From the NCBI RefSeq assembly GCF_009914755.1, contig NC_060928.1: a DNA stretch of 64,000 nucleotides; one strand, given 5' to 3'. Below, piece by piece: positions 29,860-36,200 of this stretch (positions are counted from its first letter, which is position 1; each line of letters begins with the position of its first letter). The notes beneath the pieces were generated by a model. It saw nothing but the letters and a program-made list of their open reading frames with translations, was not told where the DNA came from and did no database searches. The translations under genes and the position numbers were made by a program. Source of the DNA: the human T2T-CHM13v2.0 reference genome, Homo sapiens.

Positions 29860-30480
29860 ACCAAGACATCCACTTATGAACAGAATGAAGCAACAGGACC
29901 CAGATTTACCCTTCTGCCTGAAACTGCTAAAAAAAAAAAAAGAAAGAAAAACTAGACAAAATGTATACGACAATGGTTTTCAGATATTTAATATCAAGCA
30001 TCACAGCCTAGTGTTCCCTGAGAGAGTTGAGTCATATGATTCACCCAACTTAGTGCCAGGAGAGAGTATCCAAGGCATAACACAGGGAGGGGAATCAGCA
30101 GTTTCCATAAGTTAAGCAGACAGTTTGGGGATTGGAGGAGACCAAGACAGAGTTGGCAGGACAGAGTACTAGACAGGAGAGAGCTACACAAAGAGCACCA
30201 GAGATCTGCAGAGGGTCACCCTGGAGACTTCAGTCGAGTACTGATCGCAGCAGGCCTGTGAGGAAACTATCCAGGGCTGAAAAGGAACTGCCTAAAAGGA
30301 ACAAAGGGAGCCAGGGGCCAGGACAGTTTGTATTCCCACCAGCCAATGTTGGAAAACCGTATAATTCATAGACTAATTAGAAGGTTTAGCTTTCATATGG
30401 GGGAAGGATTAGCCCTGGATTAAAAGCTGTTCTGTTCTCCCTAAAAAAGCTTAAATCAGGCCTCAAAACGAACTATTTCT
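29860..30480 (+). mobile_element. Old L1 (L1M/L1ME-type) 5' region, left arm
   Basis: L1M 5'-region motifs ending aaaagcttaaatcaggcctcaaaa..aactatttct; continues at 33235. Confidence 0.7.
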
Positions 30481-30659
30481 TTTTTTTTTTTTTCAAGAGA
30501 TCACTTTTTATTGTGATACACAGTTTACTGAAGAGAGGAACTGCTCTGATGACGAGCATCACAGAGTTTTAAGCAGATACTGGCAACACCTGACTCACTA
30601 AAGCAGGAGGCAGTTACACAATTACAGCAGTACAGTACATACTAGTTTATAGAGTTATG

Positions 30660-31532
30660 TTTTTTTGGGGGGGCTTTCACATTTGTTGATTTTTATTGGC
30701 GATCTCTTTTTCAATACAATTTATGCCCTCATCCTCATTTCCCGTCTGATTATACAAGTGCTAAGTGGCAGAAAGTTCTGGAATAAATACATAAAAAAAA
30801 AGAGGCAAAGCTGTGAAACTAAGTTGCATGCAACAGGTTCTATGAGGGTGGTGGAAGTGTGTGAGAAACAAAACAGAGTAAGACAATGTAACTGGAAAGT
30901 TTTAGCTAAAGTTCTTTTCAGTCATCTTTGTCTTTTACTCCATGTTTCAGGATGCTTGTGAATTCGATGTAATTGAAATTCCCCTTTTTGTCAATAGATG
31001 CTTCTGTGTACAGCTCATCCACTTCCTCATCCGTAAACTGATCCCCCACGGTTGTCAGCAGCTCTCTCAGGTAATCTTCCTGAATGGTGCCTGTTGCTTC
31101 TTCATCAAAGCAAGCAAAAGCATTTCTGATGACGTCTTCAGGATCTGTGCCATTTAACTTCTTACCAAACATGGCGAGCAACATGGTGAAGTTAATGGGC
31201 CCTGGTGCCTCATTCATCACGGCATCAAGGCATGCATCAGTGGGATTCTTCCCTAGAGAAGCAAGCATACCATGCAAATCTTCCTTGCTGATGAAACCAT
31301 CTCTGTTCTGATCAATCATGTTGAAGGCCTCTTTGAACTCCTGAATCTGTGACTGGTCAAACGTGGCAAACACCTTGGACGTTGCACACTGAGGGCGCTT
31401 CTTGGTGGTCTTGCCTTTTTGCTCAACATGGTGGTTGCTTAATTCCGGCACCAAATACCAGAAACGGAACCACCCTGTGCGAGATGACAAGCGACAGCGA
31501 GGAGCGCGGGGCTGTGGCCAGACAGTGGCGGC
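30660..31532 (-). pseudogene. MYL12B: Processed pseudogene of non-muscle myosin regulatory light chain 12B (5'UTR, intronless CDS, 3'UTR, short A-tail remnant)
   Basis: ORF 30918-31490 encodes [11 protein letters not shown]...[15 protein letters not shown]...[14 protein letters not shown] (not NPTDE) and ATG TTG AGC AAA AAG GCA favour MYL12B over MYL12A. The true ATG (accaccATG, 31429) is out of frame after a ~7-nt deletion. AATAAA at 30692-30697, T7 at 30660-30666. TSD tatagagttatg (30648-30659) / tatagagctatg (31533-31544). Symbol is the parent gene. Confidence 0.95.
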
Positions 31533-31636
31533 TATAGAGCTATGATTTAATACTGCATTTTAAATTTGCTTACATGTACAGTCTGTATGTTTTCATAAAA
31601 TTTAACTTTTAATAGATTTGTGTATTTTGTGGTCGT

Positions 31637-32240: not shown

Positions 32241-32697
32241 TTGCATATACCTGTGCACTTCAAATTTATGTTGTTCAAGGGTCTAATGCATAATTTTTTC
32301 AGTAAACTCAATTAGTGGGTTCCCCAAATTGTGGGATAAATCTTTTATGTAAATTCATGTGTTTTACAGACATGTGAAGACATCCCACAGTACACTAATT
32401 ACAGTCTTATTCAAATCTCAACTCTATTACAGATTTTGCATGTCAAGAAATCTTTTAGGTTCTGCTATTCCTCAGACTACGTTCCTGACCTCATTGAGGG
32501 TTTCAGAGGATAAATCAGGGGTCAGACTGGTAGAGTCACATAGAGAAGGAAAGAAAATAAGAAAAATGCTAGGAAAACCAGGCAGTGTCTCAATTACTAC
32601 AGAATGGTCTTCACAAACTGGCATCACTGTTATGCTGGCAATAAATTTGCAAATCTCACACACCTCTTCTAATGTAAGTAGAAAACACAGACATTCA

Positions 32698-33002
32698 GGC
32701 TAGGTGCAAGGGGTTCACACCTGTAATCCCAGCCCTTTGGGAGGCCAAGATTGCTTGAACCCAAGAGTTCAAGACCAGCCTGGGCAACACGACAAGACCT
32801 CATCTCTACAAAAAAATTTAAAAATTAGCCGGGCGTGGTGGGGCGCAGTTGTAGTCTCAGCTACTTGGGAGGCTGAGGTGGGAGGATCCATTGAGCCTGG
32901 GAGGCTGAGAGTGCAGTGAGCTGTGATTGTGCCACTGCGCTCTGGCCTGGGTGAGAGGAGTAAGACCATCTCAAAAAAAAAAAAAAAAAAAAAAAAAAAA
33001 AA
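32698..33002 (+). mobile_element. AluJ inside the outer retrocopy, largely unedited
   Basis: AluJ-type motifs (ttgcttgaacccaagagttcaagacc, ggaggatccattgagcc); A tail. Confidence 0.9.
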
Positions 33003-33234
33003 GACACGCAGAGCTGATTTTTTGTTTTTAGGATCCACACATCTAAAAGTTGAATAATTAAAGAAAAATTAATCAGCACTGATTGACTCTGGAAGAGTAT
33101 TAAATTAGCTTTTCCCTTTAAAGTAGACCCCAGGCTTAACTTACCTCAAGCTCTTTTGATTCTGATAGCCTGTATGCCTATACTGTATAAGCTAAAGAGT
33201 GCATCAGTCTTTTCTATCACTTTAAATACAATAA

Positions 33235-36200
33235 AACTGTTTCTAAGCAACTTAATTGCATCCCAGAACAAAACGCAAGAATATCTATAAGAATATTAAT
33301 CTATCCAGGACCTAAAAAGAAAAATTCATAATGTCTGGCACCCAACAAAAAATCACCGGATAGCCAAAGAAACAAGAAAATATAACTCATAAAGAGAAAA
33401 GTCAATGAAGAGAACTATACAGAAATTATAGTTATAACTGTATTCCATATATTTAAGAAGATAGAAGAAATATTGAACATATTAAGGAAGGGGAAAATAT
33501 TTTTTAAAATGTAAATTAAGCTTTTTGGAATCTACAATTTCTGAAATAAAACATATATTGGATAGGATTAATCACAGTTTAGACATCTAAGAAGAAAAGA
33601 TTAGTAAACTTAAAGAAAAGCAATAGAAACTGCAAATAAACACAGAGAGAAAAATGGCTGACAATAAAAATGAACAGAGCATCAGTGAGTTGTGGGACAT
33701 CTTTAAGTAGTTTCCTACATGTGTAATTAGTCTATAAAGGATCAAAAAGGACAGAAAATATATTTGAAAAATTAATGGCCACAAATTTTCAAACTTGATG
33801 AAAACTGTGAAACTACAGATCCAAGAAGCTCAGTAAACCCCAAGCACAAGAAATGTGAAGAAAACTACAAGTCACATCATATTCAAAATTGTTAAAAGCA
33901 ATGATGAACAGGAAACCTTAAGTGTATCCTGGGAAATAAAAGACACCTTACATACAGAGGAATAAATATAAGAATAAATCAGACACCTTGTCAGAAAAAG
34001 TGCAAGCAGAAGATAGTGGGGCAACATCTTAAAAGCACTAAAAATAGAAATGTGTCAACCTAAAATTTTATATTTAGCTAAAATATACTACAAATTATAA
34101 AACATTTGTAGGTGAAATAAAAATATTTTCAGATACAGAAAAGCTAAAAGTATCATCACCAGCAGAGCTGTACTATAAGGAAAGTTACAGGATGTTTTTT
34201 AGGAAGAAATAAAAAGAGAAGAAAATCTGGATCTGTTCAAAGACATAAAATAAACCAGAAACAGTAAATGTGTAATTAAATATAACATTGTTTCTTATTT
34301 TTAAAGACTCTTTAAGAGATAATTGATTGTTTATTATTATAACTAGTAGCAATGAATTGTGGGATCTAAGCCATATATAGAAGTAAAATGTATGTCAACA
34401 TTAGTACAAAATCAGGGAAGGAGGAAATGGAGGTGTACCGATGTAAGATTTTTATATTATTTATGAAGTAGTTATTATTTTAAGTTAGACTGTGATTGGT
34501 TAAAGATGTAAATTATAAACCTTAGAGAAATACTAAAAGGACAAAAAAGAAAAAAGTAACAAAGAACAGATAAAATATATAGAAAACAGTTGAATATGTG
34601 GTAATTTAAAACCAATAATATAAATAATAAAATTAAATGTCAAGACCTAAATACCACAATTAAAGGTCAGAGATTGTCAGATTGAATAAAAAAGCAAGAC
34701 CCAACTATGCTGCCTATAAGAAGCGTGCTTTAAATATAAGGAAACAAGTAGGTGAAAAGAAAATACATGGCAAATTATATAACATGATAATACTAATCAA
34801 AACTGGAATGACTATTACTACACAAGGCAAATTTCAGAACAAAGATTATTACTAGACATAAAGAGGATCATTTTATAATGATTAAGAGGTCAACTAATCA
34901 AGAGGTAATAACAATCATAGACATTTATGCATCTAACATCAGAACTTCAAAATACATGAAACAAAATGAAGAAAACAGCAAAGAGAAATCCACGAGTATT
35001 GTCAGAGATGTCTACAACTCTCTATCAACAATTGATAGAAGAACTAGAAAGAAAATCAGTAAGGATCCAGAAGATTTAAATGACAATATCAACCAATTGA
35101 ACCTAATTGACATTTTTTGAACACTTCACCCAGCAACAACAGAATACATATCCTTTCCAAGTAAACACTGAACTGATACCAAGATAGATCATATTCTGGA
35201 ACATAAAATAAATCTCAATAAATTTAAAATAATTAATGTCATACAAGGTATGTTCATTGAACTGAATGCAATGTAATTGAATTAGAGGTCGGTATTGGAA
35301 ATATATCTAGAATATCTCCAAATTAATAGAAACTAAATAACATACTTCCAAATAACCTAGGTTCAAGGAAGAAATCAGAAGGAAAATTAGGAATATTTTA
35401 AACAGTATTTCAAACTGAATGAAAATGAAAAGATAACATATTAAAATGTGCTGGATGCTGCAAAAGCAGTACTTAAAGGGAAATGTATAGCACTTAATGC
35501 CTATTACAGAATAGTAGAAGGATCTCAAATCAAGAACTTCACTATCTACCTTAAAAAACTAAACAAAGAAAAGCAAATGAAACCAAAGCAGAAGAAAGGA
35601 CACAATAAAGGTTAGAGTAGAAATCAATGAAATAGAAAAAGAAAAACAATAGAGAAAATCAATGAATCCAGTATCTGCTTCTTTAAAGAGATGAATGAAA
35701 TTGATAAATCTCTAGCAAGGCTGATCAGGAACAAAAGAAAAGAAATACAAATTACTGATAATAGGAATGATAATTAGATCACTACAGAGTCTACCAACAT
35801 TAAAAGAGCAATTCAGAAATATTATGAACAACTTTGTGTCAATATGTTTAACAATTTAGATAAAATTTTAAAATTTCTTGAAAGACACAAACTACCAGAG
35901 GTCATTCAATAAGTAATAGATAACATTAATAGCCTCTTATATACTAAAGGAAGTGAATTTGTAACTTAAAACATTTTCATAAAGAAAGATCCAGATCCAT
36001 AAGGCTTCATGGCTTTAGTGGTGAATTCTATCAAACATTTAGGAAAATAAGAATACCAATTTTGTCCAAGCTCTTCCAAAAATTTACAGAGAATTAAATA
36101 CTTTCCAGCCTAATTTCTGAGGCCAGCATTTCTCTGATGCTAAAACCAGAAAAAGACATTATAAGAGCACTACAAATATCTCCCATAAGGATTTGTTAAA

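What the first reader, a model, noticed from the sequence alone, without database searches (positions are those of the whole stretch)
30471..33244. Retrocopy inside a retrocopy: the real insert is 2.75 kb, not just the MYL12B pseudogene
SEEN: two independent nested sets of L1-retroposition hallmarks in the same orientation. Inner: MYL12B cDNA 30660-31532, AATAAA 30692-30697, eroded T7 tail, TSD tatagag(t/c)tatg. Outer: T13 tail 30481-30493, AATAAA 30507-30512, TSD aact(a/g)tttct at 30471-30480 and 33235-33244, with the host L1ME rejoining across it. INFERENCE: the eroded inner tail versus the cleaner outer tail suggests MYL12B first landed in another transcribed locus, and that host RNA was later retroposed here, making a second-generation pseudogene. 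The alternative is that MYL12B inserted here after the outer copy.
Basis: partly seen in the sequence, partly recalled or inferred. Interest (0 to 1): 0.8.

Follow-up and report, generated by a model that had tools for sequence, protein, structure and literature searches.

The report
Recopied pseudogene carrying fossil RNA edits
This 2.75 kb stretch of human chromosome 4 is a copy of DNA just past the end of the HAUS2 gene on chromosome 15, including an older MYL12B pseudogene that already sat there, and it carries a one-strand cluster of A-to-G changes in two inverted Alu repeats that likely are RNA edits frozen into the genome roughly 30 million years ago.

Summary
Confirmed and extended. 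The insert (window 30481-33234, minus strand) is 92% identical to chr15:40,377,021-40,379,868, which holds a MYL12B retrocopy between the same flanks, with a perfect target-site duplication. The two copies share 13 derived changes. So MYL12B landed on chr15 first and was carried to chr4 inside a longer RNA. The source lies just 3' of HAUS2, and the RNA ended at an AATAAA found in none of 8 other copies of its host transposon.

New: two inverted Alus in the chr4 copy show A-to-G at 21 of 84 ancestral non-CpG A's in RNA sense, against T-to-C at 2 of 93. The chr15 source shows 1 of 64 and a lone third Alu 0 of 33. The 5' neighbour order U>A>C>G matches ADAR; the expected 3' G excess is absent. 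Most likely an ADAR-edited hairpin RNA was reverse-transcribed by L1 and fixed. The copy starts 37 nt after an AATAAA at HAUS2's main 3' end (by a recalled coordinate offset), so the template may have been a cleaved 'tail' RNA (about 30%). The RefSeq protein-coding label is unsupported. Primate genomes could not be checked.

The parts
30471..30480 (+). Outer target-site duplication, left copy (one change from the host-type sequence)
30481..30493 (-). Outer poly(A) tail, not templated on chr15
   Evidence: chr15 continues with a G/U-rich stretch here
30507..30512 (-). Distal poly(A) signal AATAAA inside a DNA-transposon fossil; present on chr15, absent from 8 of 8 other copies of that repeat
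30494..30647 (-). Co-copied piece of a pogo/Tigger-like DNA transposon fossil, 3' of MYL12B
   Evidence: the continuation on chr15 gives a weak CENP-B_N hit, E 0.019; the name Tigger2 is recalled
30648..30659 (-). Inner TSD, 3' copy
   Evidence: perfect 12-nt repeat on chr15 (L015:6825-6836 and 7703-7714)
30660..31532 (-). Full-length MYL12B processed pseudogene (MYL12BP2), inherited from the chr15 copy; 7-nt deletion just after the native ATG
31533..31544 (-). Inner TSD, 5' copy (one A-to-G against chr15)
31545..31636 (-). Transposon fossil, middle piece; a 150-nt deletion relative to chr15 lies at 31636/31637 and removes the 3' end of the sense Alu
31637..31866 (-). Alu B, sense in the RNA, 3' arm of the hairpin; 9 chr4-derived non-CpG A-to-G (31643, 31663, 31664, 31705, 31731, 31744, 31784, 31838, 31839)
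31933..32240 (+). Alu A, antisense in the RNA, 5' arm of the hairpin; 12 chr4-derived non-CpG A-to-G in RNA sense, T-to-C on plus (31959, 31971, 31972, 32051, 32057, 32092, 32102, 32127, 32131, 32151, 32152, 32167)
32241..32699 (-). Transposon 5' end plus single-copy chr15 sequence (only chr15 and chr4 match)
32700..33002 (+). Alu C, antisense in the RNA, outside the hairpin; no A-to-G excess (0 of 33), internal control
33003..33230 (-). 5' end of the copy; matches from L015:5021, 37 nt after an AATAAA at HAUS2's main 3' end
33235..33244 (+). Outer TSD, right copy; on the minus strand the site reads TT/AGAAA, an L1-endonuclease-type site (consensus recalled); 4 unmatched bases at 33231-33234

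Best explanation
The insert is a copy of chr15 sequence just 3' of HAUS2 that already held a MYL12B retrocopy, likely made by L1 reverse transcription of a polyadenylated RNA whose inverted-Alu hairpin had likely been A-to-I edited by ADAR, so that the edits were fixed as G. Steps: (1) shown: two Alus in opposite orientation and a full-length MYL12B cDNA sit in one DNA-transposon fossil past the HAUS2 last exon; (2) shown: that fossil has a private AATAAA followed by a G/U-rich stretch, and the chr4 tail starts 13 nt after it; (3) inferred: HAUS2 transcription ran through its main site and through MYL12B's orphaned signal to this one; (4) predicted fold: a hairpin of about 260 pairs with a 64-nt loop; inferred: about 17 of the 21 A-to-G changes are edits; (5) inferred from tail, TSD and target site: L1 target-primed reverse transcription into an old L1; (6) shown: neutral-looking decay since, about 3% per copy, roughly 25-35 million years at a recalled rate. 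No present function is indicated.
For: Same flanks and same inner insertion point on chr15; 2480 of 2690 aligned bases identical. 13 shared derived sites, 8 non-CpG, in 847 columns; tips 30 (chr4) and 28 (chr15); chr4+chr15 clade 85/87. Direction: flanks run on at chr15, while chr4 has a non-templated tail, a TSD and a host continuous in relatives. HAUS2: Pfam PF15003 over the cut-off at C15:40368275, last exon E 0.0075, published site c.*329 falls on an A in the first 3'UTR Alu. Editing: A-to-G 21 of 84 against T-to-C 2 of 93, Fisher 6e-6; other transitions 7 of 309; chr15 1 of 64; both arms, same RNA strand; lone Alu C 0 of 33, p 8e-4, stable to the CpG filter; 3.4 expected at the insert's own background, p 2e-11. 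Edited share by 5' base: T 8/13, A 8/19, C 3/25, G 2/27, the hADAR1/2 order in PMC3113232 Table 3; ordinary A-to-G in 58 other Alus is flat at about 2% for all four 5' bases. Another inverted Alu pair in the window shows no excess (A-to-G 3 and 0, T-to-C 2 and 2).
Against: No 3' G excess (5 of 21 edited, 25 of 63 unedited), though PMC3113232 and PMC3197674 report one. chr4-derived A-to-G is also raised outside the hairpin, in the MYL12B part: 10 of 245 against 0 on chr15 (p 0.002), though not against T-to-C 4 of 209 (p 0.28); this is unexplained. In the predicted fold, differing A's are not enriched in paired positions (23 of 103 paired, 12 of 49 unpaired; unpolarised, CpG sites included). Tree support is under the tool's 95/80 mark. 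Polarity rests on a majority of paralogous Alus, not on primate orthologues. No data seen show present-day RNA or editing over this hairpin. One event only.
Confidence: 0.87

Rival explanations
1. Same RNA-mediated double copying, but the A-to-G cluster is ordinary DNA mutation after insertion (GC-biased gene conversion near the 4q end, or replication or transcription asymmetry).
For: chr4 has more A/T-to-G/C changes than chr15 across the insert, and 10 A-to-G in the MYL12B part.
Against: GC bias would raise T-to-C equally (2 of 93); strand asymmetry would not stop at the hairpin (Alu C 0 of 33; single-copy middle part A/G 4, T/C 7); the 5' context differs from ordinary A-to-G (p 5e-4).
Confidence: 0.08
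2. The template was not a 5'-truncated long HAUS2 isoform but the free downstream piece left after cleavage at HAUS2's main poly(A) site, polyadenylated at the distal site (a sub-case of the best explanation, differing in step 3).
For: Similarity starts 37 nt after the AATAAA at L015:4979-4984. The distal HAUS2 3'-seq peak in PMC5725528 supplement 4 maps to L015:4530-5046 (needs a recalled hg19-hg38 offset, under which the proximal peak ends 14 nt after an Alu A-run). That paper reports stable uncapped poly(A)+ tails. No copy of upstream sequence was found elsewhere. Alu C is unedited although spare sense Alus lie upstream in the HAUS2 3'UTR (weak).
Against: Noticed after the fact; L1 5' truncation can stop anywhere; a few matching bases at the junction could suit ordinary truncation; the HAUS2 row in that supplement concerns two upstream peaks, not this region.
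Confidence: 0.3
3. MYL12B inserted at chr4 after the outer copy, independently of chr15.
For: None found.
Against: Identical insertion point and TSD on both chromosomes and 13 shared derived changes.
Confidence: 0.01
4. A DNA-level duplication from chr15, or an orphan 3' transduction driven by an L1 upstream on chr15.
For: The insert has no exon-exon junction of its own host transcript.
Against: It ends at a poly(A) signal with a non-templated tail and TSD, and bears an RNA-strand signature. A 17-nt L1 3'-end motif (recalled) had 0 matches at up to 3 mismatches in 20 kb of chr15 around and upstream of the source; this is a weak test.
Confidence: 0.04

Closest known systems
Processed pseudogenes (L1-made retrocopies); MYL12BP2 is annotated here
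   Same: Tail, TSD, endonuclease-type target site, intronless MYL12B part
   Different: The annotated pseudogene is only the inner third; its direct parent is the chr15 copy (probably MYL12BP1; name-to-locus link recalled), not MYL12B; the outer RNA has no coding exon of its host gene
L1/SVA 3' transduction and read-through retrocopies (review PMC5470649, passages; PIPSL recalled)
   Same: Downstream genomic sequence carried to a new site through a transcript that passed a poly(A) signal
   Different: No driving L1 found at the source (weak test); the likely driver is a housekeeping gene
Hyper-edited inverted-Alu RNAs (PMC3197674, passages) and edited 3' extensions of mRNAs (PMC12711578, passages; mouse Haus2 is one example there)
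   Same: Clustered A-to-G on one strand in both arms of a close inverted pair, 5' G depleted
   Different: Fixed in DNA; no 3' G excess; mouse SINEs are not the same elements
APOBEC-edited retroelements fixed in genomes (PMC4866542, PMC2873906, passages)
   Same: One-step, strand-biased hypermutation written into the genome during retrotransposition
   Different: A-to-G on the RNA strand in double-stranded Alu, not G-to-A on LTR-element cDNA
Uncapped 3'UTR tail fragments (PMC5725528, abstract, passages, one supplement row)
   Same: 5' end next to a poly(A) site, 3' end at a distal one
   Different: Here only a genomic fossil, beyond the mapped HAUS2 end; template identity is inferred

Membership tests
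L1-made retrocopy (outer event) | Non-templated poly(A) after a poly(A) signal | tested here: met
L1-made retrocopy (outer event) | Target-site duplication in a host that is otherwise continuous | tested here: met
L1-made retrocopy (outer event) | Loss of introns of the source transcript | tested here: inconclusive
   The copied stretch has no host exon junction; the 150-nt deletion has no GT-AG ends
L1-made retrocopy (outer event) | Empty site in outgroup species | not testable with these tools
   No other primate genome is held
Second-generation retrocopy | Inner retrocopy present at the source with the same flanks and TSD | tested here: met
Second-generation retrocopy | Shared derived changes with the source copy | tested here: met
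   13 sites; clade 85/87
ADAR hyper-editing signature | Clustered A-to-G on the transcribed sense strand, not T-to-C | tested here: met
   21 of 84 against 2 of 93
ADAR hyper-editing signature | Concentrated in a long double-stranded region | tested here: met
   261 predicted long-range pairs; lone Alu 0 of 33; a weaker excess remains in the MYL12B part
ADAR hyper-editing signature | 5' neighbour U>A>C>G | tested here: met
ADAR hyper-editing signature | 3' G enrichment | tested here: not met
   5 of 21 against 25 of 63; small sample; the 5' base is the stronger determinant in PMC3113232
ADAR hyper-editing signature | Same sites edited in present-day RNA from chr15 | not testable with these tools
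   No RNA data; supplements searched gave only a HAUS2 site in an upstream Alu
Functional retrogene (RefSeq XM_047444357.1) | Intact frame from the native start | tested here: not met
   7-nt deletion; stop after 37 codons; the model uses two upstream exons and reads 284 aa
Functional retrogene (RefSeq XM_047444357.1) | Purifying selection | tested here: not met
   chr4 tip 13 replacement to 5 silent, neutral expectation 2.7 to 1
L1 3' transduction | Source L1 directly upstream of the carried sequence | tested here: inconclusive
   One short motif, 0 matches

The most novel reading that the evidence does not exclude
A molecular fossil of one germline RNA molecule: the uncapped piece left downstream of HAUS2's poly(A) cleavage, re-polyadenylated in a transposon fossil, hyper-edited by ADAR on an Alu hairpin, then read through its inosines and its duplex by L1 reverse transcriptase and fixed about 30 million years ago. 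It would show that edited read-through or tail RNAs are L1 substrates in the germline, and that retrocopies hold a datable archive of past ADAR activity that can be screened genome-wide.
Probability: 0.3. Interest if true: 0.78.

Novelty: new variant of a known kind. Interest (0 to 1): 0.6.

Why it matters
A-to-I editing is taken to be non-heritable in mammals. Here about 17 edits appear to have become germline DNA in one step, the ADAR counterpart of the known APOBEC-edited retroelements. It implies that L1 reverse transcriptase copies inosine-rich, double-stranded RNA in vivo, although such RNA is often described as held in the nucleus (recalled) and ADAR1 restricts L1 in cell assays (PMC5224506, passages). 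It gives a dated read-out of ADAR neighbour preference and a simple screen (retrocopy against source, A-to-G by strand in inverted Alus). It also corrects the annotation: the parent of MYL12BP2 is another pseudogene, and divergence-based ages of such copies are inflated by edits. The locus itself is probably inert.

Tried and rejected
Distal MYL12B 3'UTR: rejected. Other copies of the chr15 region or of the HAUS2 last exon: none found; the HAUS2 family search gave 1 match of 8 candidates. The chr6, chr8, chr17 and chr12 myosin-light-chain copies matched only within the cDNA part, so they look like separate events. CpG decay on chr15 as the cause of the A/G differences: removed by polarising and filtering; the result held at four filter settings. 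Splicing as the cause of the 150-nt deletion: no GT-AG ends; a reverse-transcriptase jump at the stem base is not supported either, as the 3' break lies 83 nt past the stem. A 9-nt inverted match between the 5' junction and the RNA 3' end was set aside as chance once the junction was placed at 33230. Functional retrogene: not supported. Pfam on host fragments: 1 weak hit of 3. Literature: 10 searches found no description of this locus as a nested copy and no report of ADAR edits fixed by retroposition. The library lacks most subscription papers, most hits were seen only as listings, and bioRxiv supplements and one scanned supplement of PMC12711578 could not be read, so precedent is not excluded.
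Full report
OBSERVATION. Only 3 other 10-mers in the window come within one mismatch of the outer TSD. With the insert removed in a script, 4 of 29 related repeat loci align across the junction with at least 30 nt on both sides, 8 more start inside the TSD, and the multiple alignment is colinear there. The host is L1-like (weak Pfam hit in 1 of 3 fragments); the subfamily was not tested.

SOURCE. Both flanks of the MYL12B part map to one place, G000 C15: window 30494-30659 at 95% and 32240-32700 at 95%. 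The MYL12B part's best match lies between them (C15:40378824-40379702, 91%). The whole insert aligns to L015:5021-7868 (C15:40377021-40379868), 2480 of 2690 bases identical. On chr15 the inner TSD is a perfect 12-mer, and the cDNA starts where the match to MYL12B exon 1 starts. After the last shared base chr15 runs on without an A tail, so chr15 is the donor. The single-copy middle part matches only chr15 and chr4; sequence upstream of L015:5021 and the HAUS2 last exon have no second copy.

HOST GENE. Pfam HAUS2 scores over its cut-off 8.7 kb upstream on the same strand, and the exon at L015:1618-1827 matches the profile's C-terminus weakly (E 0.0075). A published HAUS2 editing site, c.*329 at hg38 42,567,145 (PMC9086164, supplement row), falls on an A in the first 3'UTR Alu. 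The distal HAUS2 3'-seq peak in PMC5725528 (supplement row) maps to L015:4530-5046 if the hg19-hg38 offset is 292,198 (recalled); it contains AATAAA at 4979-4984. So the copied region begins just past HAUS2's main end. Two Alus and MYL12B sit inside one DNA-transposon fossil that is contiguous in other copies (weak CENP-B_N hit; the name Tigger2 is recalled). The AATAAA used by the outer RNA is private: 0 of 8 other copies have it, and a G/U-rich stretch follows on chr15.

ORDER AND AGE. Against the MYL12B parent and the chr6, chr8 and MYL12A outgroups, over 847 columns: 13 changes shared by chr4 and chr15 (8 non-CpG; they include R17C, R133Q and A167V; R161S is shared but unpolarised), 30 private to chr4, 28 to chr15, 15 on the parent lineage, 2 unpolarised. 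The coding tree groups chr4 with chr15 at 85/87, under the tool's strong mark (the chr12 copy was left out as distant). Non-CpG tips in the three Alus are 18 of 638 (chr15) and 20 of 638 (chr4, the 21 hairpin A-to-G left out). At about 1% per 10 million years (recalled) this puts the chr4 copy near 25-35 million years ago, and the chr15 insertion some 5-15 million years earlier. These are rough.

THE A-TO-G CLUSTER. Alu A (antisense in the RNA) and Alu B (sense) lie 64 nt apart on chr15 and fold into a predicted hairpin with 261 long-range pairs (-468.7 kcal/mol over 741 nt). chr4-derived A-to-G in RNA sense: 12 of 39 in Alu A and 9 of 45 in Alu B, 21 of 84, against T-to-C 2 of 93 (Fisher 6e-6) and all other transitions 7 of 309; chr15-derived A-to-G 1 of 64. 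Alu C, 460 nt further 5' and outside the hairpin, has 0 of 33 (p 8e-4), and the result holds at four CpG settings. At the highest background in the insert (10 of 245) 3.4 are expected, p 2e-11. None of the 58 reference Alus has more than 23% of its differences of either type, against 14 of 27 and 11 of 23 here. An inverted pair at 53270-53918 shows no excess. Edited share by 5' neighbour is T 8/13, A 8/19, C 3/25, G 2/27, the order U>A>C>G given for human ADAR1 and ADAR2 (PMC3113232, abstract, sections 6 and 8, passages with Table 3). Ordinary A-to-G in the reference Alus is flat, about 2% for each 5' base (102 of 4816; p 5e-4 for the difference). Against: no 3' G excess (5 of 21, 25 of 63), which PMC3197674 (passages) gives as part of the motif; no enrichment in paired over unpaired A's in the unpolarised fold count; and an unexplained A-to-G tilt in the MYL12B part (10 on chr4, 0 on chr15, p 0.002; against T-to-C p 0.28).

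MECHANISM. Shown: anatomy, donor, order, private signal, strand-specific cluster. Inferred: RNA polymerase II ran from HAUS2 through its main site and through MYL12B's signal, which lacks its own downstream element here, to the private signal; ADAR edited the hairpin; L1 reverse transcriptase primed at a TT/AGAAA site and read inosine as G. The template was either a 5'-truncated long HAUS2 isoform (about 65%) or the free piece downstream of the main cleavage site (about 30%), since similarity begins 37 nt after that AATAAA and such uncapped poly(A)+ tails are reported (PMC5725528, abstract and passages). This was noticed after the fact, and the percentages are my judgement. A 150-nt deletion on chr4 removes the 3' end of Alu B; chr15 is ancestral there (intact Alu with TSD), and its timing is unknown.

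CODING LABEL. The native ATG frame is broken by a 7-nt deletion and stops after 37 codons. The RefSeq model avoids this with two upstream exons and an acceptor in the co-copied transposon piece, giving 284 aa with GT-AG ends. chr4-specific coding changes are 13 replacement to 5 silent, against a neutral 2.7 to 1. I read it as a pseudogene with an open stretch by chance; expression was not testable.

COMPARISON AND NOVELTY. Retrocopies, nested retrocopies, transductions and edited inverted Alus are each known (PMC5470649, PMC5408686, PMC2584115, PMC5199112: passages only). APOBEC edits fixed in retroelements are known (PMC2873906, PMC4866542: passages). PMC5224506 (passages) found ADAR1 restricts L1 and saw no editing in L1 RNA itself. 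PMC12711578 (passages) lists mouse Haus2 among elongated transcripts with inverted SINEs during infection; its readable supplements had no HAUS2 row. MYL12BP2 appears in 7 papers, 6 listed; the two read (passages) use it as a CRISPR off-target and a GWAS neighbour label. Ten searches gave no account of this locus's origin or of ADAR edits fixed by retroposition; coverage is partial, so this is not proof of novelty.

VERDICT. Real. A second-generation retrocopy (about 0.97) with a probable fossil ADAR footprint (about 0.9); combined 0.87. New variant of a known kind; interest 0.6. One probably inert locus, but it opens a direct genome-wide test.

Noticed in passing
L015:4979-5021 (C15:40376979-40377021): The copy's 5' end lies 37 nt past an AATAAA at HAUS2's main 3' end.
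   Followed up: partly
window 31636/31637; L015:6586-6735: 150-nt deletion on chr4 removes the last 67 nt of the hairpin's 3' arm and 83 nt beyond; made during reverse transcription or later is unknown.
   Followed up: partly
window 30660-31532: chr4-derived A-to-G 10 of 245 against 0 on chr15, outside any obvious duplex; unexplained.
   Followed up: partly
window 30918-31558, 45772-45960, 46117-46141: RefSeq model XM_047444357.1 reads open for 284 aa, using a splice acceptor inside the co-copied transposon piece and ending at the outer tail.
   Followed up: partly
L019:1513-2324 and 2955-2992 (C6:33160254-33161745): A separate MYL12B retrocopy on chr6 whose 3' end is split off by about 630 nt of Alu sequence inserted just before the poly(A) signal.
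   Followed up: no
window 53270-53918: Another inverted Alu pair, under 100 nt apart, with no A-to-G excess; used as a control.
   Followed up: partly
L015:7691-7697; window 30667-30673: A C7 run before the inner tail in both copies where the MYL12B parent has C3.
   Followed up: no
L015:3027-3054: The 'proximal' HAUS2 3'-seq peak of PMC5725528 appears to end at an Alu A-run, so it may be internal priming (rests on a recalled offset).
   Followed up: no
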